Source: Patescibacteria group bacterium (GTDB taxonomy: Bacteria; Patescibacteriota; Microgenomatia; UBA1406). Taken from it: a stretch of 64,000 nt of DNA. The DNA lies in the NCBI GenBank assembly GCA_041665145.1, contig JBAYJK010000002.1:232339-296338 (forward strand), read 5' to 3'. A program made the translations under genes and the position numbers. This document shows positions 5,534-58,023 of the stretch, piece after piece; position 1 is the stretch's first letter, and every line of letters begins with the position of its first letter. The notes below the pieces were generated by a model, which made no database searches, was not told the DNA's origin, and worked only from the letters and a program-made list of their open reading frames with translations.

Positions 5534-6295
5534 CTAATACTTAGGTACTGCAATAAAATTAATAACTGTCTGGTAAGTGCCGGTTGCTTGAGCCCCGTCG
5601 ATATTCGCTAGAAATGTAACAGTTGAAATACGGTTTTTCGCGGCTATAGTAGAGGACATGAAGGTAACCGGACTATGTCCGGCTTCACGCGAAGCAAAAG
5701 GACGGTAGTATGTGTTATTTAAAAAATCTGCAGTTACGTCATGTCCTGATGCGTTGTACCCGAATCCCGTCGCAGCAGTTGACGTCCAGACATTCGCACT
5801 GGTTCGAGAACATGCTTGGATCCCTCCGTTACAAGTTGTGTCAGGAATAAAATGTAAGGAAAGCGTCCGGAGAGGATGGTCTTCTATGACTTGGACGTCA
5901 TAGCCACGACTCGGATTAGTAATTGTTACATCTAACGTCGGCAAAGGAGTCGGAAAAGTGTTCGGAATTAATGTCCCGAAATTTATAAGAGTTGATGAAA
6001 TTTCGAATTCAAAAGGCATGGTGGTAAAAATATATTGGAAACCCACTTTTACCACAAATCCCGATGAGGTAAACCGGTCGGCAAATGTTTGTCCGAGTGA
6101 AGTGGTCATGCTGTAATTCGGGGAATCATGCCGACCGCTTCCTATATTAAGGTTGCCGAAAATTATATTATAGTTTGTTGAGTTCATGTTCACCGCATAC
6201 ACTTCAGTTGATAGTTGAGAGTTGAGAGTTAAGAGTAATACGAAGACAATACTTACTCGTATGAGCATGGAGACTAAGTTATTGATTAAATTCAT
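5534..6295 (-). CDS. secreted WxL-domain-like surface protein
   Basis: 253 aa with a signal peptide (…STEVYA). The C-terminal region carries W-containing and terminal motifs (ANVWTSTAATGFGY … GTYQTVINFIAVPKY). These resemble the two WxL-type motifs and parallel the C-terminus of ORF 10409..11854. Confidence 0.45.
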   Translation of the reverse strand: MNLINNLVSMLIRVSIVFVLLLTLNSQLSTEVYAVNMNSTNYNIIFGNLNIGSGRHDSPNYSMTTSLGQTFADRFTSSGFVVKVGFQYIFTTMPFEFEISSTLINFGTLIPNTFPTPLPTLDVTITNPSRGYDVQVIEDHPLRTLSLHFIPDTTCNGGIQACSRTSANVWTSTAATGFGYNASGHDVTADFLNNTYYRPFASREAGHSPVTFMSSTIAAKNRISTVTFLANIDGAQATGTYQTVINFIAVPKY

Positions 6296-9410: not shown

Positions 9411-9524
9411 ACTTCCAGTTTTCAATTTACAATTTTCAATCAATTTTTAAGGTTCAGTTTTTAACTGTAACTTCCCGGTATTGAAAACTGAATGAAAATT
9501 GAGAACTATAAATTGAAAATTGAG
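9411..9524. terminator. composite palindrome between convergent comEC-MBL and PaaX-like genes
   Basis: cagttttcaat (9415) and caattttcaat (9431) can pair in nested fashion with attgaaaactg (9479) and attgaaaattg (9512). Confidence 0.45.
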
Positions 9525-28225: not shown

Positions 28226-31200
28226 ATGAAAGCATTAAAAAAAGCTCGCGTACAGTTTCTGCTTGTACTCATTCTTTTTATTGCTACTACATTAATATAT
28301 GTAAAGCTTCAGCCGAAAAAATCAGCTGAAGCCGCCTGGTACAACGACAGTTGGCAGTATCGCCAAACATTTACTGCAACAAACGGAAGCGCCTACTCTG
28401 CAACAAATGTCCCTTATCGATTAATTTTTGACACCGCTTCCCCCATCGCTGCCAACAAAATGCTTGCATCAGGTAATGATATCCGCATCGTCAATTCAAA
28501 GGGTGCGGTCGTACGTTTTCAGGTCGAGCAAAGTACACTCAACACAACCCAAACCGGAATATGGTTTGAAGCAACCATACCGGCAAATACTTCTGCGGTT
28601 TACTACATTTATTATGGCAATAACCAAGCAAGCGCACCTTCGTTCACTTCCGATGTCAGTACTGTTTCCGGAAGCGGAACCACTGTCGAAATGAAAGACG
28701 GCTCGGGATACACCACAAGTACGAACGGCGGCCAAGTCTCGGACATACGTAAAAATGGAACCAACCTGGGAGTGAACGGAAACGCTCATCACACAACCAG
28801 TTATCCCGGAAACTGGTGGGATGACCGGCCCTTTACCCAGACACTTCTCGCTTCCGGTCCTTTGTTTGTCGAGGTTAAATACACCGATTCGACATATGGT
28901 AGCTACTCTGATTTCGGAACGAATATTAAAATGTTCAAAAACAATTTCGCAGAGGTTCGGGTGTATATGACCTACAACACGGCCGGTTCGGAACAACTGT
29001 ATTACTATCTCAATTTTGATAATGGAACCCGCAATTCAGTATGGGTAAACGGAAGCGAAGTAGTTGTTGACCAAGCACCAGATTCTGGTGGACTTACCCA
29101 AGCCAGTCTTGGAGATAGTTGGTTTGGACAACGCTGGACAGGTACAGGTGTATACGGAGGCACGATAATACGAAAGAATAACTCCGATTGGACCTCCGGT
29201 TTCACCAGTGCACAGAGTTCATACTACCAAACAAATTATTCCAACAATTCTGCCTATACCAACGGCTCGAGTCGTGAAATTCGCTACGGGATATTTGCAG
29301 GCGACGGAGGTTTGAGTGAAATGACACAAAAAGGAAGCAGTTACGGTGATCAGACCACCACTATAAACGGATCCGAAGAAAAGTCTGTTGCCCCAGTTGC
29401 CTATTGGAAATTTGACGAAGGAACGGGAGGAAACGCTCACGACTCGACAGCTAATAAAAATGACGGCACGACCGGCGGAACGTGGACCAACGAAGACCAG
29501 TGTATTAACGGAAAATGTCTATACTTTAACGGCACTGATGTCTCCGTACCCGATACAAACAGCACACTGGATTTAACTTCAAAGATGAGTTTCAGCTTTT
29601 GGTGGCGTCCCATGTCCCAACACACGGGATACGCATATCAACTTTTGAGCAAGTGGTCAACTACAACCGATGCCAATCTTGCGTTCTATTTTTTCGGAGA
29701 TTATAACGGTACCCTTCCCGCAAACAAGGGATTGATGCGCATTTACGCAACCGCCGGAGGAACATGGAAAGTAATCTCAGGTTCATACTTCGTAACAGAT
29801 GCCGATCTGGGTAAATGGATGCATGTATCGTTCAACTACGATACTGCAACTGGTGGGCAACTATACATTAACGGCTCTCCGGTGGGAGTCAGAACCGGTT
29901 CGGGTGACTTGACCACAAACAATTTGCCGTTCAGAATCGGTGGCTATATTCCTAAGGCGTATTTTGATGAAGTTAAGATTTATGGATACGAACGAACTGC
30001 TACACAAATCAAAACAGATTACCAACTTCGTGGTTCTTCCAAGAGCACCTCGGTAGCCATGGGTTCGAGCAAAAGTAACAACGATGCATTTTCAAACGGA
30101 TTGGTGGGATATTGGAAGATGGATGAAAACACCGGAACAACAGTAGCTGATACGTCAGGAAACGGCGGTACCATGACTTTCACTGGAAATGCCCCCTCGT
30201 GGGTTGTCGGAAAATATGGTTCAGCAATTCGATACAACGGAACTAACAGCCTCGCAACCGTACCAAATTCCACTCCTCTTAATATTACCGGTAACGCCAT
30301 TACACTTTCTGCCTGGGTATACTTGACCGCATATCCTGCTTCGTATGGCGTTATTTATCAAAAAGACGGATACGCTGACGGATATCGGATGATGATCGCG
30401 TCAACCGGACAAATATATTCGGACATGAAAGCGTCCGAAAGAAGTATGTCGTCAACAGGAACGGTACCACTCAATACATGGACACTCGTAAACGTTACAT
30501 ATGATGGGGCTAAAATGTATACGTACATCAATGGAGCTTCTGCAGGATCGCTGTCCGTTACGCCCGGCAACCTCACCGGAACCACGGCAAGCATAAGTTT
30601 TGGACTTACGGAATACCCTCCTATTACCGGATCGATTGATGAGGCGCGTGTTTATAATCGTGCACTCTCTGCATCGGAAGTATCGTCCCTCTACAATTTC
30701 GCTCCCGGTCCGGTCGGTTACTGGAATTTTGATGCAAAAACAGGGGCGACTGTTGCCGATCTGTCAGGAAACAATAACGTCGGTGCTTTCATCGACTCCC
30801 CTTCGTGGACTGTCGGAAAGTACGGCGGAGGGCTCAAACTTGATGGTTCAAATGACGGAATACAAATAGCTCAATCTAATTCGATGAAACCCGCCAAGAA
30901 GTTCACGGTGTCCGCATGGATAAACATTCCTTCCTATCGTGCAGCCGGAGAATACGGACCTATCATAGAAGGCGCCGGCAATCTTAATTCATGGACTGGC
31001 TACTATCTCGGATTTGATACAAGCGCCAATCTATGGTTTTACGCGGGAAATGGAACAGCGTGGACAAATACATCTACCCCACAAGCGAGCATACCATTAA
31101 ACTCGTGGCACTATGTAACCGGTGTTGTCGATGATAGCACTATTTCCATCTATGTTGACGGGATACTCAAGTCTACCTCTGCACATACTTTGACGGCGAT

Positions 31201-34548: not shown

Positions 34549-36762
34549 ATGAGTCCAAAAAAAACTCTCAAAAATTATGGTCATGCAATTCCACGGTTTC
34601 TGGTAGCTTCATTTACGTTTCTCGGTTTAGCCCTTGCAGCAACGTTTTCGTATCAGATCATTCGTCAGGGAATTAAAGAGGCAACAGCCGTTCCCGGTGC
34701 CATTCAATTCGGAACAACGGGCGCAAACCCCACTCCGGCATTTCTCCGCTCGGGAAATGTGACGACTTTTTATGACACCACCTATTATTCTGCTCCTATT
34801 ATTGCTGGTGGCGGATCAAGTTCAAATTGGGCAGCAATTAATGCACCAGGAATACAGACAAGCAGCTATGTCTATTCATATGGGCCATTATGTACGAACA
34901 ATGCATCCGCAAGTTGTAATATGAGCGGAGGAGTCGGTATGTATCCGGGAGCCTTTCAGGGGACTCCAGGAGTAGCCATTGCCGGAACCGGCACAAGTTA
35001 TTTCAATGCCGGTAACGTGGGAATCGGAACAACGAACCCCTCTGGAAAGCTTGAGATATATAATGCCAGCGGGTGGTCTCCGGAAAACTCTAATCCCACT
35101 CCATTGGGTGGTTTGATCATAAAAAATTCAGCAAGTACGGCTCTGGTTATGGGTATCCAGCAGGGAACACCATACAACGGGTGGATACAGGTACGGCACG
35201 GTACCGTCGCAGGCAATTCATATCCATTATCGCTGCAACCGATCGGTGGCAATGTAGGAATTGGAATATCAGACCCCAAGGCAGTATTACATACCAGTCT
35301 CAGTGCATCAGGTCTTGTTCCCATGCTCTATTCACACAACACACTTCCGCAGTTTCCCCGGACCTTGCAAAACGTATCTGCTTCGATCACCACGAATGAT
35401 ACGACTGTCGCAACCGGACCTGTTATAGGGTTAAATCTTGAGAATTCTTCCATCACAAACGGGACATACTCTCCCCTCATAACTTTTTCAAGACGATCAG
35501 CTTCAAATAGTTACAACACTATATATGCATCGATCGGAGGTTATGCTGTCGGCAGTGGCGGAGATACGAATTGGACTTCTGGCGATCTGACTTTCGGAAC
35601 TGCACAGAGCAACGGTTACGGTCCGCTTGAAAGAATGAGAATTTCAGCGAGCGGCAATGTGGGTATCAATACAGCCAGTCCTCTTGCAAAACTTGATGTT
35701 GTAGGTATGACGTGGGTTCGGGATTCTGTAAGCACGGGAGCAACAGCTATCGTACAAGGTTATAATAGTGGAGCACTTTTCGCGAGTATGACTTCTGGTT
35801 ACCCCGTATTCATCGGAGGATCGAATAATTTCTATGCATTAACGGTCATGAATAGTGTCGGAAACAGCAATGTGGGAATCGGTACAACTGGCCCTACTCA
35901 AAAACTTGATGTAGCCGGAAATGTGCAGGTAACTGGTAATATAGTATCCATACCAACCAATGCATCTTTAGTTACGGACGCGCATGTAACTGTGCCCCGT
36001 ACAACTGCGGGATTTAATCAAATTTTTAACAAATATAACGCAGCGGGCGCATTTATTTTCAGAAGAGTACCTAACGCAGGAAGCACATCAGGTTATAATG
36101 ATTTGTTAAACATCGATAATGCAGGAACTGTTGTGTTCAACGGAGCATATTCAGCCGTCGGTTCTGGTACAAGCCAAATTTATTGGACACCAGGCGAGGG
36201 TCTCACGTTCAGAATGAATGCAAATAATGGAACCAACGTGCATATGGAAAATTTGAACGGAGTATGGAGACTTATAAATAGCCCATGGAACTTAGAAATG
36301 GCCAAAGTGAGTCAGACAGGAGATTTGACCATCGGTTCTCAAGGATACAAGCCAGGTGGTGGTAGTTGGGCTGCTTCATCTGATAGAAGAGTTAAAAGAG
36401 ACATAAATTCGTTTACTGACGGATTAAGTGTATTAGAAAAAATTAACCCAGTAAACTATACGTACAATGGACTTGCGGGTAACCCTGCAGGTTACAAAAG
36501 CATTGGTGTTATTGCCCAAGACATTCAACCGGTAGCTCCCTACACTGTTTCCAGTAAAATGGTTAAGCTCAATCCAACAGACAAAGATCTTACAAAAGTT
36601 CTCTATTTTGACCCAAGCGCACTGACATACATTAACATTAACGCAACAAAAGAATTAAACAAGAAGGTTGAAGATCTTACTATCAAACTTGATGCGCAAC
36701 AGAAAGAAATCGATGAACTCAAAAAGATTGTTAAAGACCTCCAGGAAAAGATTGGCAAGTAA
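34549..36762 (+). CDS. tail-fibre-like protein with C-terminal Peptidase_S74 intramolecular chaperone domain, N-terminal TM anchor
   Basis: 737 aa with an N-terminal TM (FLVASFTFLGLALAATF). Four GNVGIGT…KL(E/D)(I/V) motifs are like those in the giant protein. The S74 signature is SSDRRVKRDINSF…INPVNYTYN…IGVIAQDIQPVAPYTV, followed by a coiled coil (KELNKKVEDLTIKLDAQQKEIDELKK). Confidence 0.85.
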   Translation: MSPKKTLKNYGHAIPRFLVASFTFLGLALAATFSYQIIRQGIKEATAVPGAIQFGTTGANPTPAFLRSGNVTTFYDTTYYSAPIIAGGGSSSNWAAINAPGIQTSSYVYSYGPLCTNNASASCNMSGGVGMYPGAFQGTPGVAIAGTGTSYFNAGNVGIGTTNPSGKLEIYNASGWSPENSNPTPLGGLIIKNSASTALVMGIQQGTPYNGWIQVRHGTVAGNSYPLSLQPIGGNVGIGISDPKAVLHTSLSASGLVPMLYSHNTLPQFPRTLQNVSASITTNDTTVATGPVIGLNLENSSITNGTYSPLITFSRRSASNSYNTIYASIGGYAVGSGGDTNWTSGDLTFGTAQSNGYGPLERMRISASGNVGINTASPLAKLDVVGMTWVRDSVSTGATAIVQGYNSGALFASMTSGYPVFIGGSNNFYALTVMNSVGNSNVGIGTTGPTQKLDVAGNVQVTGNIVSIPTNASLVTDAHVTVPRTTAGFNQIFNKYNAAGAFIFRRVPNAGSTSGYNDLLNIDNAGTVVFNGAYSAVGSGTSQIYWTPGEGLTFRMNANNGTNVHMENLNGVWRLINSPWNLEMAKVSQTGDLTIGSQGYKPGGGSWAASSDRRVKRDINSFTDGLSVLEKINPVNYTYNGLAGNPAGYKSIGVIAQDIQPVAPYTVSSKMVKLNPTDKDLTKVLYFDPSALTYININATKELNKKVEDLTIKLDAQQKEIDELKKIVKDLQEKIGK

Positions 36763-37627: not shown

Positions 37628-37630
37628 AAT

Positions 37631-37753
37631 ACAGTTCTTATTTCTTAGTTCACAGTTCTCAAAGATTTCTCAAGTGACAGTTCTTAAGCAATTTGTTTGA
37701 TAATTAAGAATTGAGAACTCTTTAAGAACTGAAAAGTGTGAACTAAAAACTGT
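37631..37753. terminator. long imperfect palindrome between convergent genes
   Basis: The left arm acagttcttatttcttagttcacagttctcaaag pairs (with bulges) with ctttaagaactgaaaagtgtgaactaaaaactgt. It is built from GTTCT/AGAAC words and lies between the stops at 37627 (+) and 37757 (-). Confidence 0.45.
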
Positions 37754-37756
37754 ATG

Positions 37757-40879: not shown

Positions 40880-41506
40880 ATGAATATAAAACCGCTTATT
40901 TTATTTGACCTGGACTGGACTCTGATTAATGTTTCAAAACTCAAACAAGCTTTGTACGTTCTCCTTGCCGCCGTTTGCAAAACCGAAGCAAGCAAGATAG
41001 AAAAAGAGTTCGAGCAGTACATCTCCACCTTGGTAAGCAGAACAGATTTTAGTGTCGAGGAGTTAACGGAACACTTAACCCGGAAATACCAAGTACCGCA
41101 GAGTGCAATTCTTACAGCAATCACCGGTACTAAACAAATTTATTCCTCATCACTTTATCCAGAAGTAGCTGCTACAGTTGAAAAACTATCATCAAAATAT
41201 ACGTTGGGAATTTTTTCTGAAGGGACATCTTTGTGGCAAAAAACAAAAGTCACCCTCTCAGAGTTGCTGCCATTTCTTAATAAAGACCGAATCTATATTT
41301 TCAGACGTAAATGCGATTCGGTTTCACTTCAACAAATACCTGACAATGCATTTGTCGTCGACGATAAGATAGCAGTCTGTGAGACGCTACAAAGCAAAAC
41401 CGCACTCACCCCCATCTGGCTCAATAGAAAATCAGAAGAAAGTTCTTCGACTATTAAGACCATTCACAACTTGTCTGAGCTTACTGTAATCCTGCAATCC
41501 GAGTAA
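40880..41506 (+). CDS. HAD-superfamily hydrolase
   Basis: Motif I DxDxT is present as FDLDWTLI, with a cap region and later GIFSEG/DD motifs. The 3' end overlaps convergent gdh by 26 nt. Confidence 0.7.
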   Translation: MNIKPLILFDLDWTLINVSKLKQALYVLLAAVCKTEASKIEKEFEQYISTLVSRTDFSVEELTEHLTRKYQVPQSAILTAITGTKQIYSSSLYPEVAATVEKLSSKYTLGIFSEGTSLWQKTKVTLSELLPFLNKDRIYIFRRKCDSVSLQQIPDNAFVVDDKIAVCETLQSKTALTPIWLNRKSEESSSTIKTIHNLSELTVILQSE

Positions 41507-42812
41507 GAGCAACAGCAAAAGCCCCTTCTTTCATGTTTATTTTGAGGGTTTTTGATTTGTTCCATACCGCCTCAAACGCCAGTTGGAGTTGTCTTTCGAG
41601 CTTATCATTCACTTCTTTCTCGCTCCACCAATAACCGGCAAGACCCTGCACCCATTCAAAGTATGAAACAGTCACTCCCCCGCTGTTTGCCAGAATATCG
41701 GGGACGACAATAATTCCCATTTTATCGAGAATCGGATATGCGTCTTCTGCAATAGGACCGTTTGCCATTTCGATAATAATTTTCGCTTTGATTTTTCCGG
41801 CGTTTTCAGCAGTTATGACGTTCTCAAGCGCGGCAGGCACCAATATGTCTACCGGAAGTTCCAAAAGTTCTTCCTGACTAACTGTCCTCCCGTATTTGAT
41901 GTCGCAGACGGTGCCCTTGCAATAACACCCGGCAACACTTCCTTTTTTCTTTTTACAATCAAGTGTTGAGGCAACGCTCAGACCTTCTTTAACATAGACA
42001 CCTCCCTTGGAGTCAGATACGGCAACTACGGAAAAACCTTCTTCTTCGGCAATTTTGGCAAAATAGTAGCCGACATTACCGAATCCCTGGACCGCAATCG
42101 ATGGCGATTGCGGAATCTCGAATCTCGAATCTCGAATCTCGAAATTTCCTTTTTTTTGGGATTTTGTATTTGTTTCGGATTTCGGATTTCGGATTTCGGA
42201 TTTTAACTTTGAAAGTAACGCTTTCAAGACCATTACGCCGCCGCGTCCGGTTGCTTCGGTTCTTCCCAAGGATCCACCAAGCGCCACCGGCTTACCGGTG
42301 AATGTAGCGGGACTTTTTGCTCCCACGGCTTTTTCGTATTCATCGAGCATCCACAGCATTATCTGACCGTTGGTATTTACATCCGGTGCCGGGACATCCG
42401 TCCACGGTCCTATATATGAAGCGATTGCCCGTCCATAGGTGCGGGACAGAGATTCCAATTCTTCAACCGTCAATTCTTTGGGGTCAACAATAATCCCGCC
42501 TTTAGCACCTCCATAGGGCAATCCAGCAACTGCGCATTTTAAGCTCATGAGTGTGGAAAGCGCCATCACCTCTTCACGGCTTACATTCTGATGAAATCGA
42601 ATTCCACCTTTGTACGGTCCGAGCGTATTGCTATGTTGGCTTCGAAATCCTTGAAACGTTTTGATTGTGCCGTTTTTCATCTTAACGGGAAGCTTTACCT
42701 CAATAACCCGGTCAGGCTGCACGAGTTTTTCGGTAAGATCTTCCGCAAGACCGATTTTTTTGGCAGTTTTTCTAATAAGACCCTGAGCCGTTTCAAGCAT
42801 TTGATTGGACAT
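41481..42812 (-). CDS. gdh: glutamate dehydrogenase with ~27-aa in-frame insertion
   Basis: Catalytic region PYGGAKGGIIVDP and the Rossmann motif QGFGNVG. The insertion KSEIRNPKSETNTKSQKKGNFEIRDSRFEIPQS lies immediately N-terminal to QGFGNVG. Confidence 0.93.
   Translation of the reverse strand: MSNQMLETAQGLIRKTAKKIGLAEDLTEKLVQPDRVIEVKLPVKMKNGTIKTFQGFRSQHSNTLGPYKGGIRFHQNVSREEVMALSTLMSLKCAVAGLPYGGAKGGIIVDPKELTVEELESLSRTYGRAIASYIGPWTDVPAPDVNTNGQIMLWMLDEYEKAVGAKSPATFTGKPVALGGSLGRTEATGRGGVMVLKALLSKLKSEIRNPKSETNTKSQKKGNFEIRDSRFEIPQSPSIAVQGFGNVGYYFAKIAEEEGFSVVAVSDSKGGVYVKEGLSVASTLDCKKKKGSVAGCYCKGTVCDIKYGRTVSQEELLELPVDILVPAALENVITAENAGKIKAKIIIEMANGPIAEDAYPILDKMGIIVVPDILANSGGVTVSYFEWVQGLAGYWWSEKEVNDKLERQLQLAFEAVWNKSKTLKINMKEGAFAVALTRIAGLQ
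42113..42210 (-). repeat. ~98-nt imperfect-palindromic element inserted in frame in gdh
   Basis: 4x GAATCTC (42113-42140), a 32-nt spacer, then 4x TTTCGGA (42173-42200) and ttttaacttt. It is homologous along its whole length to 43251-43352 in trxB. Confidence 0.85.
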
Positions 42813-42836
42813 AAACTAAATTAAACTACTAATAAT

Positions 42837-42960
42837 AAGTTGTAACTTGTAAGTTGCAAGTTGTATTAAAGTCGTAATGATTAAGTTGTAAGTTTTAACC
42901 AGTCGTTTCAACTTACAACTTCAAGCTTTATTACAACTTACACCTTACGACTTTCAACTT
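42837..42960. repeat. ~124-nt intercistronic palindromic repeat, copy A (trxB-gdh spacer)
   Basis: Words AAGTTGTAA/TTACAACTT form two imperfect arms. It is about 93% identical (9 differences by eye) to 43997-44119. Its last 23 nt supply the trxB C-terminal codons EVESRKV and the stop. Confidence 0.85.
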
Positions 42961-43990
42961 CATCTAAATATTTCTCAATTTCTAATTCTGCTGCAACTCC
43001 CATTCCTGCAGCTGTCGCTGCTTGCCGGTAGACATGATCAACGCAGTCTCCTGCAGCAAATATTCCATCTACCGAGGTCGCATACTGAAACTTTTTGTCA
43101 AATTTTTCCCGTGATACACCCTCCGGTAATTCAAATGCAACCCTGGCGCCTGTATATATGTATTGCTTCGGATCAAGAAGCACACCCGAGCCCTCAAGAA
43201 ATTTAGTTGCCGGCGTATGACCAATAGCCACAAATACTCCGTCCAAGGGTAAATCTCGAAGCTCGAAGCTCGAATTTCGAAGTTGTTTTAGATCTTCGGA
43301 TTTTAGTGCTTGTTTCGGATTTCGGTTTTCGGATTTCGGAATTTTTAACTTTATTCCCGTTACTTTCTCTTCTCCGACTATTTCCAAAACCTCAGCGTTA
43401 AGAATAACTTCTATCTTCGGATGTTTTAATACTCTCTCCTGCATAATTTTTGATGCCCGAAAACTGTCCCTTCGATGAATTACATAGACTTTTGTCGCAA
43501 AACGTGTGAGTACCAATGCATCCTCCATGGCGGAATCGCCACCACCCAGAACCGCGACCACTTTATTTCTGAAGAAAAATCCATCGCACGTCGCACATGC
43601 CGAGACTCCTTTGCCTCGAAGTTTCTGCTCGGACGGTAACCCGAGCCATCGGGCATCTGCACCTGTCGCAACCAAAATAACCCGTGCAGAATACATCGTA
43701 CCACTGCTTACTATAACATTTTTGGCTCTTTTGTCTGACTCAATCTTTTGTACAGAATCGGAAATAAACCGCGTTCCAAATCGCTCTGCCTGTAATTTCA
43801 TTTCCTGGACAAGCTCAGGTCCAAGTATCCCTTTCGAGAAACCCGGATAGTTTTCTACATCTGAAGTAAGTGTTAATTGCCCTCCAGGAACAGAGCCTTC
43901 AATAACTAACGGTTTTAAATTTGCGCGGGCTGCATATGTTGCTGCCGCAAGTCCTGCCGGTCCTCCGCCGATGATGATAAGGTTTTCCAT
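42938..43990 (-). CDS. trxB: thioredoxin-disulfide reductase with ~22-aa in-frame insertion
   Basis: GGGPAG FAD motif, redox-active CATC, the GGGDSA NADPH motif and GVFVAIGHTP. The insertion PKSENRNPKQALKSEDLKQLRNSSFE lies between VTGIKLK and LPLDGVFVAIGH. Confidence 0.95.
   Translation of the reverse strand: MENLIIIGGGPAGLAAATYAARANLKPLVIEGSVPGGQLTLTSDVENYPGFSKGILGPELVQEMKLQAERFGTRFISDSVQKIESDKRAKNVIVSSGTMYSARVILVATGADARWLGLPSEQKLRGKGVSACATCDGFFFRNKVVAVLGGGDSAMEDALVLTRFATKVYVIHRRDSFRASKIMQERVLKHPKIEVILNAEVLEIVGEEKVTGIKLKIPKSENRNPKQALKSEDLKQLRNSSFELRDLPLDGVFVAIGHTPATKFLEGSGVLLDPKQYIYTGARVAFELPEGVSREKFDKKFQYATSVDGIFAAGDCVDHVYRQAATAAGMGVAAELEIEKYLDEVESRKV
43251..43352 (-). repeat. ~100-nt imperfect-palindromic element inserted in frame in trxB
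   Basis: aatctcgaagctcgaagctcgaatttcgaag … TTTCGGA/TTTCGGT/TTTCGGA/TTTCGGA (43313-43340) … tttttaacttt. It has the same orientation and the same end sequences as the gdh element. Confidence 0.85.
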
Positions 43991-43996
43991 GCTTTA

Positions 43997-44119
43997 AAGT
44001 TATAACTTGTAAGTCGTAAGTTGTATTAAAGTCGTAATAATTAAGTTGTAGTTTTAATCAGCTGTTTCAACTTACAACTTCAAACTTTATTACAACTTAC
44101 ACCTTACGACTTTCAACTT
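43997..44119. repeat. ~123-nt intercistronic palindromic repeat, copy B (csoR-like-trxB spacer)
   Basis: Direct repeat of 42837-42960. It starts 7 nt after the trxB ATG position and ends at the stop of the CsoR-like gene. Confidence 0.85.
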
Positions 44120-44363: not shown

Positions 44364-44418
44364 AATTGCTTGTTACTTTAAACTTTTAACTTTTTACTTA
44401 CCCCGACTTTGTCGGGAT

Positions 44419-44441
44419 ATACCCCTACCCCCTAAGGGTAT
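44419..44441. promoter_or_regulatory. candidate operator for the CsoR-like repressor
   Basis: ATACCC-N11-GGGTAT inverted repeat with a C5/G5 tract (minus strand ATACCCTTAGGGGGTAGGGGTAT). It lies 56-78 nt upstream of the repressor ATG. An adjacent small hairpin CCCGAC-ttt-GTCGGG sits at 44402-44416. Confidence 0.45.
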
Positions 44442-44771
44442 CAATGTACTCAAGAAATGTCAAGCCAATGCGGTTCTTGACAACTACTGTATAATGGGAT
44501 ATAGTAAGGATGCTACTGTAAGGTTAAGAAGCGCATTGAAATATTTTCCTACACAAGAACTTATTTAGGGTAACCTCCAGCCTGAGAAGGCTGAAGATTA
44601 TAAAGTGTAGTTCTTCGATCCCGACTACGTCGTGGATTGAGACGCACTCACCTTTTGCAAACCGTGGGAAAACAACAATGCGACATTGCTTTATAGTAGC
44701 AATTTTATTGTCGATACTTATACATCAGGTTCTCGTTTCCAATTAGATTATCAATTTATTATTCCTTATTC

Positions 44772-47401: not shown

Positions 47402-50400
47402 TCACGACTGGTTCTTCGAATCATCCATCTTCATTTCCTGCACCGGGAGCTCTGCTGTTACCGCCGGTTCTTTAGCTGTCGCCGGCAATTCTACATACTC
47501 GATTGCTTTTTCTTCAAGCATTTTCTTGAGTTCTTCCTCTTTCAAGAGGGCTTCACTTACTTCCTGAGCAGCTGCAAGCTTGGCTTTCAAGTACATGGCA
47601 ATGTCCTGAATAGTCATATCGGTCAACATAAAGAACGGAATAATATCGGAGACGGCAGTAAGTCCTTGCGCTTTAATTTCTTCGTTTGCTGACACGAGCT
47701 TGTTCAAGACGTTGGTGAGTATTACCGCATCCCGTTGTACCCAGACAATGCGAGAAGTTATTTCTTTGGTAAATGGTACTTCTCCATTTGTATAGTGTTC
47801 TATCCACATGCGTTTGAGCTCTTCATATTCGTCAATACCCATAGTTTTGGGTGTCGCGATCATTTTTCCAGAATCAAGTATTTTTGACCTCAAATTCACT
47901 CCCTTATCGAGCGGTTTCTTTCCGCGATCGGCCAGCGCAGCCGGTCGAAGTGCTTGTTGCACGAGCTGTTGTGTTTCCTTAACAGTTGTTTTCTCATTAG
48001 TTTTCTCTGTAAGCTTCTCCAGCATTCTTTCAACAGTTTCTTTAGTGGTTTCTGTTGCTTTTACGAGCGTTGAGATTACGTTTGCCGGCTGCTGTGTTGT
48101 GACGACCTGTGGAATTTTTTGTATAACCGCCTGTATAACATCCGCTTTCATTCCCGATGCTTGTGCAATGCTTTCCACAGCCACCTGGTCCACGGCAACG
48201 GCGGCAAGAGCCGATTGTAATGTTTGCACCAGTCCTTCGGGCTTCTGGTGCGTTTCTGCAGCTATGGACTGCAAGGTGGTTACCCCCGCCGCTTCGGTGA
48301 GCGTTGAATTTACTTTTTCAATTACATCCTTCACTATATCTGTTGTTGTGTTTTGAGATGTCGCAATACCGGTAAGAACTTCTTTGGAAAGTGCGCTTTC
48401 CGTTATTTTTTTAACAACTTGGGTAACCGTTTCTTTTTCTATATTGGTCTTCTCGGAAAGCACAGTCAGCATGTCTCGGGGTGTTGTTGTCGCACTGACC
48501 TCTGATAATGTCGTAAGAATACGTGCAACATCCGGTGTCGAGACATGTGTGATCTCAGACACTCTGGACAACAGTTGTTGATCGTTAGAGACACCCGTTG
48601 TCCATAGGTCCAGAATTTTTTGCACGTTGGAAACGGTAGATTTGGTTTCGGTTGAAACTGCGTCTGTCGTATTCATCAGCGACAATTCCTGATGAGATAA
48701 CTGTTGGATTTTTTCCTGGACAGCCTCGGTTGACTTATTGACCAATTGCTTATATTCCTGTGCAGACTGAGTGTTGGATTGCTCAGCCTTAACGATTGTT
48801 GTTTGTGCGCGGGCAATATCTGAAAGCTTTTGAATTTGGATATCCATGCGTTTCAAAATACTTTCGAATTCCTGCCTGTTGATGCCTTGATTTATAACAA
48901 CGGTTTTTGCTGACATGCCTGCAAATGACGAAACGTCAGCGGGCGAAGTAACTTCGCCCCTACTTGTGTTTTCATTGAATTGCGATTCTTGACTCGCGAC
49001 TCGCGACTCGCGACTCTTGGTCTGGACGTCTTCGATTTCCTGTTCGAGTTGCATTGTTTGCTCTTTAACCCCCTCGGCTTGCTGTTCTACATCCACAAAC
49101 TGTTCCTCGACTTTGTTACCCATTGCCTGCTGAACTTCTTCAACCGCCCCCATCTTGTTCTGGATTTCTTGTGCAGCAGAAACCTTCGCCTTCAAATATG
49201 CTGCGATATCCTGCATACTCATATTACCGAGCATGAAGAATGGAATAACATCGGCAACTTCTTGCAATCCTTCGGCACGAACTTCTTCGTTATCGGAAAT
49301 GAGCTTGTTAAGCGTATTGTTTAACGAGACCACATCTTTCTCAACCCAATCTTTACGCGTTTTAATTGTGTCACTGAGTGGTATCTCTCCCTTTTCATAA
49401 TGGTCGGTCCACATCTTCTTAACTTCCTCGTATTCATCTATCGACATTGTCTGTGGCCGAGCGATAAGCTCTGCGGGAGCGCTTACTTTCTGTGTAGCCG
49501 GCTTAGACAGCACTTCTTGTGCCACTTTCTTGACCTGATCGATATTGGTTTTTGTTTGCGATGCAATTCGTTCTGCTACCGCTGTTGTCTGTACATGCTC
49601 GGCAGCTTTTGTAAGAATTGTTGTTGCTTTGTCTGTAGTGATTCCTGCCGTTTGTGCTACCGATTTGATAACCTCCGACTGCTTCGACTCCTCGACCGCT
49701 TTCGGTATTGATTGCAACACTTGTGACGTTTGAGAATCCGAAACATGTGCATTATTGGCAATGTTGTTAACAACCTTCTTGTCACCTACAACGTCGTTTA
49801 CCATGGATTGCGTGATGTTTTTGACCTCGTTCTGGGATATGTTCACGTGTTGTGAAATATTCTGAATATTCGTTACCGTTTGTGCCTTATTCTGGGCAAA
49901 TTGCTGAATCGCCTGACGCACGCTTGTTGCCGTACTTGTTGTCGCATTGAGGAATTGTTGTGCATTCACATCACCCTTAACTGCCCGTTCGGACATTTCG
50001 GTCTTCAGTTTAATAAATTGAGACCGTTCTTCCTTACTTTCAGCTGCCATCGGATTGCGCATCTTTTCCATAAACTCACGCACGTATTCTTTTCGGTCTG
50101 TCTTTGTTTCAAACCGGGCAATATCCGAAAGCTTTTCGATCTGGACATCCATACGCCGAGTAATCTCGGACACATCCATTTGTTTCATATTTTGCATGTT
50201 TTCGATTGCCGATGTGGCACGCATACCTTGTGAGACTGCCTGCTCGTGCGGTATCTGCATTTTCTGTGAGAAGGATTGTTTTGGAATATTCGCAGGTCCT
50301 ATCGGTCCCGGTGTTGGTCCGTGACTCTGTTGTTCCAACATGTTTAAGAGTATGTTTTTCATGGCGTAAATACCTTCGCAACAATAATCTCTGAATATTC

Positions 50401-51596: not shown

Positions 51597-53399
51597 TTAC
51601 ATTCTTTCGACAGTCCGGATTCCCAAAAGATACAAGCCATTTTTGAGAACTTGTGAGACTGCTTGAGTAAGATTTATACGAAGTTCCATTTGCTCCCCAC
51701 TTAATATGGAATGTTTGTTGTAAAACGTATTAAACGTCTGGGCAAGTTCGTTTAAATATACCGCAACAAAATGAGGGTCATAACTCTTTGTCGCTGTTTC
51801 AACAACTTCAGGAAATTTGGCAAGAGCTTTAAGGATAGCGAGTTCTTCGTTGTTGTATTCGTATGCATGTGTCGCGGGTCTCGCGTCTTGGGTCTCGCGT
51901 CTTGGTTCCTTAGACTCGTGACTCGTGACTCGTGACTCAGGACTCTTTCTTAACACACTCTTACATCGTGCGTAGGTATATTGCAAATACGGACCAGAAT
52001 CTCCGCTCATTGAAACGCTTGAGGTAATATCAAATGCTAAGTATTTAAATGCACTCATTTTAAGAAACGAATACTTGACTGCTGCTAATGCGATCGCATC
52101 AACATCACTTTCTGGTAAAACTGATTTATTCTCCACAATTACCTTGGCAATTGCTTTGTGTGCTTCATCGAGAATCAACTCTGCTGTAACCACCTGACCT
52201 TTTCGTGAAGACATTTTCCCGCTTTTCAAACCGACAAACTCATATGCGTTGTGGTATTGCTTTCCCTTGAACAATTCCGGGTTCAAAAGCTCTTCAACTT
52301 TGAAGGTTACCTCGAAAAAACTTTTTTGCTCTACCGCGACGTTATGAACACACAAATCTATGTGGCCAAAGTCTTTAAACTCCATTTGTGCAAGACCAAG
52401 TTCTTTACCCTCGTACGTCGGCAGCCCTTCACTGTTAAGAAAAACCCTCGTATCGAGTTTATACGGCTCGCCGTTAAAAATAATCGCTCCCTTACTTTTG
52501 ACAAGAATTCCTTTTTTAATAGCTTCTTCGTTTTGTACTTTGGCAACTTCCAATGTTTCGCTTTCAAGATATTCCCGCTCGAAATGACTATCAAGACGAT
52601 CATAAATTTGGTGAAACTTTTCCAAACTCCACTTTACTCCGAGCTTCCACAATTCATGAACCTCTCCTTCCTTTTCCGTATATATCTTCTTGTTAACTTC
52701 GATGATTTCTTTTTTATTTTCCTCACTTTCTTCAAAGGCTTTTGCCCCCTCAACATAACATTCGGATAATAATTTGACACGTGCATCGGGCGAATCAAGA
52801 TTCGCCCCTACAACGTCCCCGTTTCGAATTTCGAATTTCGAATTTCGAATTTTCTTTTGCAACGCCCACACACATTTGGCAACATGCATTCCAACGTCAC
52901 CCTGGTAGTTCGTCCGTATGACTGTGGCTCCCGATGCCTCTAGAAGTCTGGCAATGGACACTCCTAAACAAAAATTTCTCAAATGTCCAATATGCATGAC
53001 TTTAAACGGGTTCGGATGCCCGTATTCGACCATAATTTTCTTATTCTTCAGCTCGGAATTCTGCCCATAGTTATCATTCTGAGCAAGAACCTCCTGTACA
53101 ACCTTGCTGTACGCTTCAGGCTTCAGGAAGAAATTTATGTATCCCGGCTTTGCTACCTCCACTCGAGCTACATGAAGGGTTGAACCCTTCATGCCATTAG
53201 AAAAAGATAGGTTTAGCTTGTCAACAAGAGCTGCAGCGAGTTGCATTGGATTCGTCTTGACGTGACGGGCTAAAATCATGGCAATATTCGTCGAATAATC
53301 TCCGTGAGCAACTTCAGGAGACACAAAGACCTCTATTAAAGAATGAAATTCTGCATCAACAACCTGTTTTAATAGATCAATTATCTGCTGTTTGAACAT
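51597..53399 (-). CDS. argS: arginyl-tRNA synthetase with three in-frame repeat insertions
   Basis: 600 aa with the HIGH motif as MHIGH and the KMSKS-equivalent GKMSSRKG. The N-terminal Arg_tRNA_synt_N-like region and a C-terminal DALR-like anticodon-binding region ending in M are present. Confidence 0.94.
   Translation of the reverse strand: MFKQQIIDLLKQVVDAEFHSLIEVFVSPEVAHGDYSTNIAMILARHVKTNPMQLAAALVDKLNLSFSNGMKGSTLHVARVEVAKPGYINFFLKPEAYSKVVQEVLAQNDNYGQNSELKNKKIMVEYGHPNPFKVMHIGHLRNFCLGVSIARLLEASGATVIRTNYQGDVGMHVAKCVWALQKKIRNSKFEIRNGDVVGANLDSPDARVKLLSECYVEGAKAFEESEENKKEIIEVNKKIYTEKEGEVHELWKLGVKWSLEKFHQIYDRLDSHFEREYLESETLEVAKVQNEEAIKKGILVKSKGAIIFNGEPYKLDTRVFLNSEGLPTYEGKELGLAQMEFKDFGHIDLCVHNVAVEQKSFFEVTFKVEELLNPELFKGKQYHNAYEFVGLKSGKMSSRKGQVVTAELILDEAHKAIAKVIVENKSVLPESDVDAIALAAVKYSFLKMSAFKYLAFDITSSVSMSGDSGPYLQYTYARCKSVLRKSPESRVTSHESKEPRRETQDARPATHAYEYNNEELAILKALAKFPEVVETATKSYDPHFVAVYLNELAQTFNTFYNKHSILSGEQMELRINLTQAVSQVLKNGLYLLGIRTVERM
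51877..51946 (-). repeat. tandem arrays inside argS: 14-mer x2 + heptamer x5
   Basis: GTCTCGCGTCTTGG at 51877-51890 and 51891-51904. GACTCGT x3 (51912-51932) is followed by GACTCAG and GACTCTT. The region encodes KSPESRVTSHESKEPRRETQDARP. Confidence 0.85.
52788..52811 (-). repeat. REP-like hairpin R5 inside argS
   Basis: GGGCGAATC-aa-GATTCGCCC-CTAC. The minus strand reads GTAGGGGCGAATCTTGATTCGCCC and encodes VGANLDSP. Confidence 0.8.
52822..52849 (-). repeat. heptamer array TTTCGAA x4 inside argS
   Basis: Four perfect copies, one substitution away from the TTTCGGA arrays in gdh and trxB. It encodes IRNSKFEIRN and lies 10 nt from REP R5. Confidence 0.85.
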
Positions 53400-53405
53400 G
53401 TGACA

Positions 53406-53414
53406 ATTATAGCA
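53406..53414 (-). promoter_or_regulatory. extended -10 box TGCTATAAT 6 nt upstream of the argS ATG
   Basis: The minus strand reads ttttTGCTATAATtgtcacATG. The identical 9-mer precedes leuS at 4116-4124, 8 nt from that ATG. Confidence 0.5.
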
Positions 53415-53581
53415 AAAAGTCGCGAGTCACGAGTCTAAGAGTCTAAAGGTCTGAATGTCTGATTGTCTGAAAGTCTTGTAACAATAATAGCCAGGCTGCG
53501 AAGATACCAATTTTCGGCGACTTGGGGAAACTAAGGGGCCCCCACGGAGCGTAGAAAACTGGGTATCGAGCTGCCTACAAA

Positions 53582-54472
53582 CTATGATTGTTCTCTTTTA
53601 ATTACTTTTATATTCGGCAGCGCGGCTGAAGCAACGATCAAGACCCCACCGATAATCGTACCGATTCCGAGTGTTTCACCGAAGAACATAATTCCGAATG
53701 TTACACCGAAAAGTATTTCCGCAAGCCCGATAAGACTTCCGATGCTCGCATCAAGGTATTTAAATCCTTCAATAACAGCCCAATTGGCAAGAAGCATTGC
53801 AGTAGCATATCCCAGTTGTGCCAACCAGGGGATCGATATGGCAAGTGACGGAAGCGGGTCGTGAAGGACAATTCCCAGAAAACCGTTTACTACAATCATG
53901 ACAATAAAATACCCTGCCATAATCTGGAATTCCGGATACTCACCAGACAATTTCTTCGGCATAACCGCTGCAGTCGCTCCCAATAATCCGGCAATCATCG
54001 TGAGAGCTGCCGGAATAAATTGATCGGGAGTGAGGGAAAACCGGTATACCGCACCGATTCCGATAAGTGCTAGAGCAAGACTTATAAGTTTTATTCCTGT
54101 TATCTTTTCCCGAAAAACGAGTTTTCCGATCACATATCCCCCAACAACCAGCGCAGCATAAAAAAGCATGGTCGCCGTACCGATGCTGAGATATTTAAAA
54201 CCGATAAAATATGGAGCCTGATTCAGTCCTCCGGCAAGCGCTATCCCAATAAACCACGGCCAGTCTTTTTTTTGTATTTTCTTGAAAATTCTAAATCGAA
54301 AATTGAGAATTAAGATACATGCAAGCAACATCGCTCCTCTTGTCCATGCCTGAGAAAATTCTCCGAACGAACTACTCATCAGTCGGGACCAGATTCCGTA
54401 CGTTCCATAGAAGAACGCCGAAACGAGTATAAAAGTTGTCCCTTTGTTTTTCATACGCTTGATTATAATCAA
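53582..54472 (-). CDS. EamA/DMT-superfamily transporter
   Basis: 296 aa with 10 hydrophobic helices in two EamA-like halves. The alternative start MKNKGTTF is at 54454. Confidence 0.8.
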   Translation of the reverse strand: MIIIKRMKNKGTTFILVSAFFYGTYGIWSRLMSSSFGEFSQAWTRGAMLLACILILNFRFRIFKKIQKKDWPWFIGIALAGGLNQAPYFIGFKYLSIGTATMLFYAALVVGGYVIGKLVFREKITGIKLISLALALIGIGAVYRFSLTPDQFIPAALTMIAGLLGATAAVMPKKLSGEYPEFQIMAGYFIVMIVVNGFLGIVLHDPLPSLAISIPWLAQLGYATAMLLANWAVIEGFKYLDASIGSLIGLAEILFGVTFGIMFFGETLGIGTIIGGVLIVASAALPNIKVIKREQS

Positions 54473-57941: not shown

Positions 57942-58023
57942 GCTGGAATTTATTATATACTTCTTACCAACTTTCACACAATCGAAACTATGATTGCCAA
58001 AACAGACGTGGTGCGCGGCACGT

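What the first reader, a model, noticed from the sequence alone, without database searches (positions are those of the whole stretch)
42113..43352. The same ~100-nt palindromic element is inserted in frame in both gdh and trxB (analogous to Rickettsia palindromic elements)
42113-42210 (gdh) and 43251-43352 (trxB) align end to end: AATCTCGAA(T/G)CTCGAA… / central GGATTTT(G/A)T / TGTTTCGGATTTCGG(A/T)TTTCGGATTTCGGA…TTAACTTT. Each has a left array of CTCGAAx heptamers and a right array of 4x TTTCGGA, and the two arrays are imperfect reverse complements (about 5 of 7 positions pair). Both copies keep the reading frame and add 22-27 hydrophilic residues (KSEIRNPKSETNTKSQKKGNFEIRDSRFEI and KIPKSENRNPKQALKSEDLKQLRNSSFELRDL). 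The insertion positions look like surface loops: just before the QGFGNVG Rossmann motif of Gdh, and before the GVFVAIGH strand of TrxB. The only well-known precedent I can name for mobile palindromes inserted in frame into conserved enzymes is the RPE family of Rickettsia. A related TTTCGAA array sits in argS.
Basis: partly seen in the sequence, partly recalled or inferred. Interest (0 to 1): 0.75.

Follow-up and report, generated by a model that had tools for sequence, protein, structure and literature searches.

The report
In-frame heptamer-repeat inserts in two enzymes
Two neighbouring housekeeping genes of an uncultured Patescibacteria bacterium carry copies of one ~100-base repeat built from 7-base units, read through as a floppy surface loop; related genomes show such cassettes being gained, lost and copied between genes very fast, which resembles the "selfish DNA inside genes" known from Rickettsia.

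Summary
Window 42113-42210 (gdh) and 43251-43352 (trxB) are 81-83% identical over about 100 nt. Each has a 4.4-copy heptamer array, a roughly 30-nt centre and a 4.4-copy TTTCGGA array. Both are in frame and absent from solved homologues and most orthologues.

These copies are only weak palindromes; their folds are no better than shuffles. They belong to a genome-wide excess of 7-nt arrays (15 found, 0 expected) that fills the spacers and enters at least five genes.

Related Microgenomates genomes support copying rather than independent growth:
- One genome has its own variant in three genes (fmt, trxB, gdh).
- Four genomes 84-93% identical carry four different states at the same loops.
- In one of them a 120-nt non-heptamer element is 97.5% identical between trxB and gdh. 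Its gdh copy carries trxB flank, joined at an 8-nt microhomology.

Best explanation: a dispersed, rapidly turning-over family of coding-compatible repeat cassettes, translated as disordered loops. It probably spreads by homology-primed template switching or gene conversion, with slippage resizing the arrays. It behaves like Rickettsia palindromic elements but is not a member of that family. No description was found in the literature searched. Interest is moderately high.

The parts
42113..42210 (-). gdh copy of the repeat. On the + strand it reads GAATCTC x4.4 (42113-42143), a T-rich centre (42144-42172) and TTTCGGA x4.4 (42173-42203). On the gene's sense strand it reads (AAATCCG)4-AAACAAAT...-(TTCGAGA)4 and encodes KSEIRNPKSETNTKSQKKGNFEIRDSRFEI.
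   Evidence: it is an insert relative to PDB homologues and to 71 of 120 orthologues; AF2 predicts a coil with pLDDT 53-54
43251..43352 (-). trxB copy of the repeat: a CTCGAAG-type array (43255-43281), a centre (43282-43312) and a TTTCGGA-type array (43313-43340). It encodes IPKSENRNPKQALKSEDLKQLRNSSFELRD.
   Evidence: it replaces the 8-residue turn of solved TrxR structures; it is absent in L001, L174, L175 and L536
41481..42812 (-). gdh (Glu/Leu/Phe/Val dehydrogenase, 443 aa), host gene
   Evidence: Pfam PF02812 and PF00208; PDB E = 1e-114; 100% identical to a protein of a Patescibacteria MAG
42938..43990 (-). trxB (thioredoxin reductase, 350 aa), host gene. It also has a second, non-repetitive lineage-specific segment near residues 285-305, at a site where relatives carry heptamer or module C inserts.
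52822..52852 (-). One-armed TTTCGAA x4.4 array in argS, encoding KIRNSKFEIRN. It is related in unit only and gives no net insertion.
51871..51945 (-). Second heptamer hairpin in argS: (GGGTCTCGCGTCTT)2 followed by (GACTCGT)4, encoding ESRVTSHESKEPRRETQDARP. The + strand RNA fold has z = -3.15. The region has about the same length as in PDB 2zue.
48982..49019 (-). GACTCGC x3.7 array in frame in the 1357-aa ORF, encoding SRESRVASQ. It uses the same unit family as argS 51913-51945 and the spacer 53400-53480.
42813..42937 (.). 125-nt spacer between trxB and gdh made of inverted AAGTTGT/ACAACTT heptamer arrays. It belongs to the same structural class but contains stop codons, so it is confined to the spacer.
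   Evidence: D12, D15; z = -2.9 and -5.1; the spacer is absent in L001, where trxB and gdh overlap
43991..44117 (.). Second copy (90-94% identical) of the AAGTTGT palindromic spacer element, upstream of trxB

Best explanation
The two segments are copies of one short repeat cassette. It consists of two roughly complementary arrays of about four heptanucleotides around a degenerate heptamer centre.

It belongs to a dispersed, genome-specific and rapidly turning-over family of coding-compatible repeats in Microgenomates (Patescibacteria).

The cassette occupies, and partly replaces, permissive surface loops of Gdh and TrxB. Its units contain no stop codon on either strand and its net length is a multiple of three. 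The ribosome therefore reads through it and produces a hydrophilic, disordered loop with a 7-residue period.

New copies probably arise by non-reciprocal copying from another locus. The likely mechanism is template switching or gene conversion primed by short homologies, for which the heptamer arrays themselves are ideal. Slipped-strand mispairing then resizes and homogenises the arrays.

No function of the cassette needs to be assumed. It behaves as selfish or neutral DNA, filtered by what the host protein tolerates.

Shown: copy identity, reading frame, loop position, patchy distribution, genome-specific variants in several genes, and one junction that carries donor flank.

Inferred: the copying mechanism for the heptamer cassette itself, translation, and neutrality.
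For: - Copy identity: the two copies are 81-83% identical through both arms, the centre and the 10-nt 5' flank AAAGTTAAAA, in the same order and orientation.
- Loop position and disorder.
- Genome-wide context: period-7 arrays number 15 against 0 in shuffles, while other periods are near zero. Arrays fill the spacers, often as inverted pairs.
- Rapid turnover: on a tree of 120 Gdh orthologues, insert presence needs at least 23 changes. Four genomes 84-93% identical show heptamer cassette / none / heptamer cassette plus module C / element B at the same Gdh loop, with matching states at the TrxB loop.
- Genome-specific variants: both window copies have arm 2 = TTCGAGN. L003 has arm 2 = TTGGAAT/TTGGTGC in gdh, in trxB and in fmt 7 kb away, where it is a roughly 20-aa insert against PDB 4iqf.
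- Copying with flank: L538 trxB 1287-1406 and gdh 2506-2625 share 117 of 120 nt without gaps. The last 23 nt are native trxB sequence in the empty-site relative L536. The empty gdh site has only the 8-nt GGCGAAAA at the joint.
- Modules move between arrays: module C lies inside AAATCNC arrays at trxB site 2 (L003, L538) and in gdh (L537).
- The same two-arm architecture sits in frame inside ThiC, LepA, LeuRS, MetRS, TsaD and other genes on 48 metagenome contigs of 26-68% GC.
- It is not an assembly artefact: L001 and L002 come from independent assemblies and are identical over the trxB-gdh region.
Against: - Only two full copies occur in the 74 kb of the source genome that could be read.
- The flank-carrying junction was seen for element B in a related genome, not for the heptamer cassette in the window.
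- Calling the trxB flank 'native' rests on two relatives only (L536, L174).
- The nearest relative, L001, has one-armed arrays of ancestral loop length at both sites. argS arrays add no length. Both facts also fit growth in place.
- Composition-matched control heptamers are as common as TTTCGGN in viral contigs. Shared units across phyla therefore do not indicate common descent.
- The metagenome two-arm scan has no matched control.
- Translation of the insert is inferred from frame and the absence of stop codons, not observed.
Confidence: 0.55

Rival explanations
1. Independent growth in place. Each locus grew its own heptanucleotide microsatellite by replication slippage, from A-rich Lys/Ser/Asn codons. 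The second arm arose by local fold-back template switching. The similarity between gdh and trxB would then be convergence from the same mutational bias, with no transfer between loci.
For: - Heptamer SSRs are generically over-represented in bacteria (PMC4692102, citing Mrazek 2007).
- Control heptamers are as frequent as TTTCGGN.
- 91% of TTTCGGN arrays in genomes are one-armed.
- L001 has arm-1-only arrays at both sites with normal loop length.
- argS arrays do not lengthen the protein.
- The centre-only similarity of the two window copies is modest (p about 0.04).
Against: - The two copies share the same arm order, the same AAACAA junction and 81% identity over the full length.
- L003 shares the idiosyncratic TTGGAATTTGGTGCTTGG in three genes.
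- A non-repetitive 120-nt element is 97.5% identical at the same two sites in L538. Convergence cannot produce this.
- Array length is cut off sharply at about 4 copies (3: 53, 4: 53, 5: 5, 6: 1, 7: 2), unlike a slippage-only distribution.
Confidence: 0.15
2. A conventional non-autonomous transposable element (MITE- or REPIN-like), mobilised in trans by a transposase encoded elsewhere in the genome and inserting into genes by chance. Only in-frame, stop-free insertions in loops survive.
For: - Copies are dispersed in several genes and genomes.
- The arms are inverted.
- Several unrelated palindromic inserts occupy the same Gdh loop in other lineages (L174 insert, DNA fold z = -4.8).
- An IS200-like Y1 transposase gene lies two genes (about 1.1 kb) downstream of gdh in L173.
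Against: - No terminal repeats exist other than the arrays, and no target-site duplication is seen in the window.
- No Y1 transposase homologue is in the window.
- The Y1 gene in L173 is flanked by its own unrelated hairpins.
- The cassettes replace native loop residues rather than simply interrupting them.
- The one readable junction carries donor flank and a microhomology.
Confidence: 0.15
3. A selected cis-acting element. The hairpin, which is better on the strand antisense to these genes, or the 4 x 7-nt array would be a binding site or structure. It might be used for regulation, termination, antisense control or translational pausing. Alternatively the encoded loop itself might be functional.
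For: - The CTCGAA...TTTCGG strand folds much better than its complement (-26 to -33 against -14 to -20 kcal/mol).
- Arms co-vary between genomes.
- Relatives fold significantly (L003 z = -6.2).
- Array length is capped near four units. This recalls the 'four tandem heptanucleotide' putative regulatory elements of G. metallireducens (PMC2700814).
Against: - Presence or absence differs between near-identical orthologues.
- The window copies fold no better than shuffles.
- The L173 copy is decayed and unfolded.
- There is no Rfam match and no promoter or terminator signal above shuffles.
Confidence: 0.08
4. The segment is removed or skipped and never appears in the protein. Possible routes are an intron-like RNA, an intein-like peptide or translational bypassing.
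For: Hairpin-like sequence lies inside essential genes. Bypassed mobile elements are known in yeast mitochondria (own knowledge).
Against: - Every in-gene copy examined keeps the frame and has no stop codon.
- There is no match to an intron family or any other Rfam family. Intein motifs were not looked for.
- Stop-containing heptamer elements occur only in spacers.
Confidence: 0.02

Closest known systems
Rickettsia palindromic elements (RPE; Ogata et al. 2000 and 2002, as summarised in PMC10969869)
   Same: Both are short (about 100-150 bp) repeated elements found many times in frame inside unrelated housekeeping genes. Both add a peptide at positions compatible with the fold. No transposase is linked to either. 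Several families exist in each case.
   Different: The host is a Patescibacteria bacterium, not Rickettsia. The element is built from 7-nt tandem units, so it encodes a 7-residue periodic low-complexity peptide rather than a conserved RPE peptide. Its palindromy is weak. It partly replaces native loops. Turnover is very fast. Evidence points to homology-mediated copying. Sequence relatedness to RPE families was not testable here.
Heptanucleotide tandem repeats of bacteria (cyanobacterial STRR; GGGAATC/GGGGAYT repeats of Xanthomonas and Nostoc, PMC4692102; the 49 'four tandem GGACCGG' elements of Geobacter metallireducens found within and between genes, PMC2700814)
   Same: Both have period 7, about four units per array, an excess specific to heptamers, a location mainly in spacers with some in genes, and occasional inverted pairs.
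   Different: Here two different arrays plus a centre form a cassette that is copied between genes and read in frame in conserved enzymes. The earlier reports treat the arrays as intergenic SSRs or putative regulatory sites. They do not describe loop replacement or copying between loci.
REP/REPIN elements and prokaryotic MITEs (PMC3116915, PMC10969869)
   Same: All are about 100 nt, have two inverted arms, are non-autonomous, and evolve as families within a genome.
   Different: REPINs are extragenic and tied to RAYT transposases, and MITEs have terminal inverted repeats and target duplications. None of these features was found here.
[quoted passage not shown]
   Same: Both are coding sequences with dyad symmetry, a punctate distribution and shuffling within genomes.
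   Different: PARCELs are 25-residue tandem domains in ORFs of unknown function or in membrane proteins. They are not short inserts in loops of conserved enzymes, and they have no 7-nt unit.
Tandem repeats of Borg elements that create intrinsically disordered regions (PMC9879509)
   Same: Both are rapidly evolving in-frame repeats that add disordered segments to proteins and also occur between genes.
   Different: The Borg genic repeats are plain direct tandem arrays. Here the 7-nt unit is not a multiple of three, so the frame is kept only over 21 nt. The cassettes are also two-armed and are copied between loci.
Coding palindromes in Nematomorpha mitochondrial genes (PMC6649704)
   Same: Both are inverted repeats embedded in translated genes.
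   Different: The mitochondrial ones are long perfect repeats that encode conserved protein regions. The ones here are imperfect arms that encode dispensable loops.

Membership tests
Rickettsia palindromic elements (RPE) | Repeated family with several copies dispersed in one genome | tested here: met
   There are two full copies plus one partial in 74 kb of the source genome. The relative L003 has three copies of its own variant, in fmt, trxB and gdh.
Rickettsia palindromic elements (RPE) | In-frame insertion in ORFs of unrelated conserved genes, at sites compatible with the fold | tested here: met
Rickettsia palindromic elements (RPE) | Palindromic sequence able to form a stable hairpin | tested here: inconclusive
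   The window copies fold no better than shuffles (z = -0.9 to -1.05 as RNA, +0.3 and -1.0 as DNA). Some relatives are significant (L003 z = -6.2, L146 z = -2.6).
Rickettsia palindromic elements (RPE) | Occurrence in Rickettsia and sequence homology to the RPE families | tested here: not met
   The host is a Patescibacteria/Microgenomates MAG. No RPE sequence library was available, so homology was not tested. A heptamer-unit composition is not an RPE trait (own knowledge).
MITE | Terminal inverted repeats, target-site duplication and a related autonomous IS element | tested here: not met
   No duplication flanks either window copy and there are no termini distinct from the arrays. No Y1 transposase is in the window. 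The search for other transposases was not exhaustive.
REP/REPIN | Extragenic location and association with a RAYT (Y1) transposase | tested here: not met
   The copies are intragenic. tblastn with the Y1 protein of L173 finds nothing in the window.
Heptanucleotide simple-sequence repeats | Tandem units of 7 nt, specifically over-represented, with unit number or sequence varying between relatives | tested here: met
   Period 7 gives 15 arrays against 0 in shuffles, and other periods give 0-3. Orthologous arrays differ in unit and number in L001, L003 and L173.
Heptanucleotide simple-sequence repeats | Origin explained by local slippage alone | tested here: not met
   Copies in different genes share irregular variants and non-repeat parts. 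Copy number is cut off at about 4.
Intron, intein or bypass element | Removed from the RNA or protein; needs no frame conservation; has catalytic or structural motifs | tested here: not met
   All in-gene copies are in frame and free of stop codons. There is no Rfam hit. Removal itself cannot be tested without expression data.

The most novel reading that the evidence does not exclude
Heptamer arrays may act as landing pads for a homology-driven copy-and-paste process. This process would shuffle small coding-compatible cassettes among the surface loops of essential enzymes in Patescibacteria, and perhaps more widely. The cassettes seen here are heptamer hairpins, the 120-nt element B and the GATCACGC module C.

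The same TCCGAAA arrays sit in frame in aminoacyl-tRNA synthetases, UvrA, ThiC and LepA of Planctomycetota, Bacteroidota and Verrucomicrobiota.

This would be an undescribed and very fast route of protein-loop innovation. It might be driven by a dedicated enzyme, and it might explain why the arrays stop at about four units.
Probability: 0.3. Interest if true: 0.8.

Novelty: new variant of a known kind. Interest (0 to 1): 0.68.

Why it matters
In-frame selfish DNA in conserved enzymes has essentially one textbook case, the Rickettsia palindromic elements. How such elements move has never been settled.

Here the same behaviour appears in the Candidate Phyla Radiation, with a different building principle (7-nt units). 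The natural data set is unusually informative. Near-identical genomes carry empty, filled and differently filled versions of the same loops, and at least one junction preserves donor flank and a microhomology.

This makes the mechanism of spread, and the rate at which essential proteins acquire new disordered loops, directly testable with public metagenomes.

It also warns annotators that 7-residue periodic low-complexity loops in these proteins, and the many short 'hypothetical proteins' made of KSEIRNP-like peptides, are products of DNA repeats.

Tried and rejected
- Searching 1.84 billion representative proteins with the 41-aa insert peptide gave only 2 hits. The query is too short and too low in complexity to be informative.
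- The word-index search with a consensus peptide mostly returned short spurious ORFs. It is useful only as a sign of breadth.
- I first read the many TTTCGGN arrays across phyla as evidence for one horizontally spread element. Control heptamers of the same composition are equally common, so I dropped that inference.
- Two-arm and swapped-arm patterns in viral contigs gave 1, 0 and 0 hits, which is too few to test arm order.
- The idea that both arms are one in-phase array was rejected. Arm spacing modulo 7 is uniform across 50 elements.
- The Y1 transposase beside gdh in L173 was followed up. It has no homologue in the window, and its own flanking hairpins are unrelated.
- Extending the source contig by 10 kb to the left found no further arrays. 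Two look-ups for the right side failed because the proteins were not on record.
- Rfam and the promoter/terminator scans found nothing.
- The literature searches found no description of these arrays or peptides. The exact-string search gave one hit, a paper on Phaeobacter inhibens probiotic activity that matched a single 14-nt string and was not opened.
Full report
**What is in the window.**
The window comes from a Patescibacteria (Microgenomates-type) metagenome-assembled genome. The Gdh protein is 100% identical to an NCBI/JGI/ENA entry on a 479,716-bp contig. The window maps to about 410,698-474,697 of ENA ERZ27249449 contig k141_479163.
- gdh is 41481..42812 and trxB is 42938..43990, both on the minus strand and both with full Pfam domain sets.
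- The two flagged segments align end to end at 83% identity, and their flanks do not align.
- Each has a 4.4-unit heptamer array, a roughly 30-nt T-rich centre and a 4.4-unit TTTCGGA array.
- The similarity is far beyond chance. The pairwise local score is 59, against 8.8 +/- 1.7 for random genome windows. A two-sequence nhmmer model finds only these two copies plus a partial match in argS.

**The segments are additions in loops.**
- Against solved structures, Gdh residues 206-236 stand where the homologues have four residues. TrxB residues 217-245 stand where they have eight.
- Of 120 Microgenomates Gdh orthologues, 71 have a short loop here.
- The syntenic TrxB genes of L001, L174, L175 and L536 have short turns.
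- An AlphaFold2 model of the window Gdh has mean pLDDT 92.9. The only low-confidence stretch is residues 211-230 (pLDDT 53-54, coil). It lies between helix 184-208 and the strand that precedes the GFGNVG motif.
- The native turn is not kept beside the cassette. The cassette stands in its place.

**The element is made of heptamers, and the genome is full of them.**
- Period-7 arrays are specifically over-represented: 15 against 0 in shuffles, with other periods at 0-3.
- They occupy most of the short spacers between genes, often as inverted pairs. Examples are 9411-9524 and 37628-37756, and the two 125-nt AAGTTGT palindromes at 42813-42937 and 43991-44117, which are 90-94% identical to each other.
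- They also occur in frame in argS (two arrays), in the 1357-aa ORF and in ORF 5534..6295.
- In argS the arrays lie in regions of about the same length as in PDB 2zue. Arrays can therefore overwrite a loop without lengthening it.
- Three heptamers make 21 nt, so an array encodes a 7-residue periodic peptide (KSEIRNP, FEIRDSR) whatever frame it is entered in.
- The genic units have no stop codon on the sense strand. Several spacer units do contain stop codons.

**How palindromic it is.**
- Per unit, the arms form five Watson-Crick pairs plus one G.U on the + strand. This strand is antisense to the genes, and it folds better than the sense strand (-29 against -18.5 kcal/mol for the gdh copy).
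- Neither strand beats dinucleotide shuffles, as RNA or as DNA.
- Relatives vary: the L003 gdh cassette has z = -6.2, a ThiC copy has z = -2.6, and the L173 copy is decayed.
- There is no Rfam family match and no promoter or terminator signal above shuffles.

**Evidence from related genomes.**
- The gene order rho-csoR-trxB-gdh-lysM is conserved.
- The nearest relative, L001, has only the first arm at both sites ((AAATCCG)4 in gdh and (AAATCCA)4 in trxB). Its loops are of ancestral length, and it has no trxB-gdh spacer.
- L003 has two-armed cassettes at the same two sites, but with its own second arm. That arm is TTGGAAT/TTGGTGC, whereas the window has TTCGAGN in both genes.
- Identities: window gdh against window trxB 81%; window gdh against L003 gdh 69%; window trxB against L003 trxB 61%.
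- L003 carries a third copy of its variant, including the irregular TTGGTGC units, in fmt 7 kb away. It gives a roughly 20-residue insert relative to PDB 4iqf.
- On a neighbour-joining tree of the 120 Gdh sequences with the loop masked, insert presence needs at least 23 changes and the heptamer type at least 10.

**Four close genomes.**
- L003, L536, L537 and L538 are 84-93% identical over trxB-gdh.
- At the TrxB turn they carry: heptamer cassette / nothing / heptamer cassette / a different GC-rich element B.
- At the Gdh loop they carry: heptamer cassette / nothing / heptamer cassette with a nested module C / element B.
- In L538 the trxB and gdh copies of element B share 117 of 120 nt without gaps.
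- The last 23 nt of that tract, CAAACATCCAGTCGCGGCGAAAA, are ordinary trxB sequence in the empty-site relative L536. The empty gdh site of L536 has only GGCGAAAA at that point.
- The simplest reading is that the gdh copy was templated from the trxB locus, carried trxB flank with it, and was resolved in an 8-nt microhomology.
- Module C (CCTGATCACGCTYCGCGTGA) sits inside AAATCNC arrays both at a second TrxB site (L003, L538) and in the Gdh loop (L537).
- These facts favour copying between loci, with arrays and other short homologies as the joints. They count against independent slippage and against classical transposition.
- L001 and L002 come from independent assemblies and are identical over this region, so the arrays are not assembly errors.

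**Breadth, and a caution.**
- TTTCGGN x3 arrays occur in more than 120 stretches of species-representative genomes from many phyla. They usually have 3-4 full units, and the count drops sharply above four.
- Several lie in frame inside Pfam domains: an IleRS-type synthetase (Phycisphaeraceae), PheT (Saprospiraceae) and PpsA. In UvrA (Verrucomicrobiota) the array lies in frame inside the long ORF, but Pfam did not report a stretch spanning it.
- The two-arm pattern occurs on 48 metagenome contigs of 26-68% GC. About 18 are inside long ORFs, including ThiC, LepA, LeuRS (same site twice), MetRS, TsaD, MutM and FolC. A subset shares the three-part architecture of the window copies.
- Composition-matched control heptamers are as frequent as TTTCGGN in viral contigs, and only about 9% of TTTCGGN arrays have an inverted partner. 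A shared unit across phyla is therefore not evidence of common descent.
- The metagenome scan could not be repeated with controls.

**Conclusion.**
The comparison with Rickettsia palindromic elements is apt at the level of behaviour: repeated, in frame, in loops of housekeeping enzymes, with several families.
- The element is not a member of that family. It is a heptanucleotide-array cassette, only weakly palindromic, embedded in a genome-wide heptamer phenomenon. It probably spreads by homology-mediated copying rather than transposition.
- Heptamer repeats as such are known (PMC4692102, PMC2700814), as are in-frame MITE-like inserts (PMC10969869). I found no description of this combination, of its occurrence in Patescibacteria, or of these sequences.
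- I rate it a new variant of a known kind, with moderately high interest.

Noticed in passing
window 42813-42937 and 43991-44117: Two 125-nt spacer elements, 90-94% identical, made of inverted AAGTTGT/ACAACTT heptamer arrays. They fill the trxB-gdh spacer and the spacer upstream of trxB. The nearest relative L001 has no spacer at all, because trxB and gdh overlap.
   Followed up: partly
window 48982-49019, 51913-51945, 53400-53480: A second heptamer family (GACTCGY, encoding SRESRVAS / ESRVTSHES) is shared by the 1357-aa ORF, by argS and, in inverted form, by the spacer between argS and the adjacent ORF 53582..54472. This is again a case of neighbouring loci sharing a unit.
   Followed up: partly
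window 15373-28221 and 28226-33469 (also 34549-36762): Giant ORFs of 4282 and 1747 aa carry at least 25 copies of a 55-nt motif (GGAAATGTGGGAATCGGAACAAC..., a G-N-V-G-I-G-T-T-x-P peptide) at irregular spacing that is a multiple of 3.
   Followed up: no
window 44364-44771: A 408-nt non-coding region upstream of rho has a strong predicted structure (-110 kcal/mol) and a near-consensus promoter at 44477-44505. It has no Rfam match.
   Followed up: no
window 43075-43140 (TrxB residues about 285-305); L003 9667-9830; L538 about 1579: A second lineage-specific segment of TrxB is absent from solved structures. It is non-repetitive in the window, but in relatives it is occupied by heptamer arrays plus module C. 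It may be an older, decayed insert.
   Followed up: partly
Genome-contig loci L005-L124: TTTCGGN arrays almost always have 3-4 full units (53 with three, 53 with four, 5 with five, 1 with six, 2 with seven). This sharp cap is not expected from slippage alone. The window arrays are also about 31 nt long.
   Followed up: partly
L173 6502-7227: An IS200-like Y1 transposase gene lies two genes (about 1.1 kb) downstream of gdh, after the LysM-position gene, in a related genome. It is flanked by its own GGACAGAACCTGG hairpins, which are unrelated to the heptamer cassettes.
   Followed up: partly
L174 3585-3938; L173 9326-9347; L175 8525-9404: Small 23S_rRNA_IVP / bAvd-like genes occur in these loci, one of them between trxB and gdh in L174. 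Avd-like proteins accompany diversity-generating retroelements, but no reverse transcriptase was seen in the stretches read.
   Followed up: no
L536 about 1659-1765 (trxB N-terminal part): L536, which has empty sites at both loops, carries a private insertion in two adjacent blocks (39 + 42 = 81 nt), with a CCCCCTAAAGGGGGG palindrome, elsewhere in trxB. L174 TrxB has a long insert in the same region.
   Followed up: no
protein P0164: An 84-aa 'hypothetical protein' of the cultured Vibrio chagasii matches the KSEIRNP-type peptide at 100% over 24 residues. Such arrays therefore also exist in isolate genomes and generate spurious ORF calls.
   Followed up: no
window 55767-58097: A TrwB/TraG-type type IV secretion coupling protein lies beside large ORFs without Pfam matches. 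The arrangement is conserved in L001.
   Followed up: no
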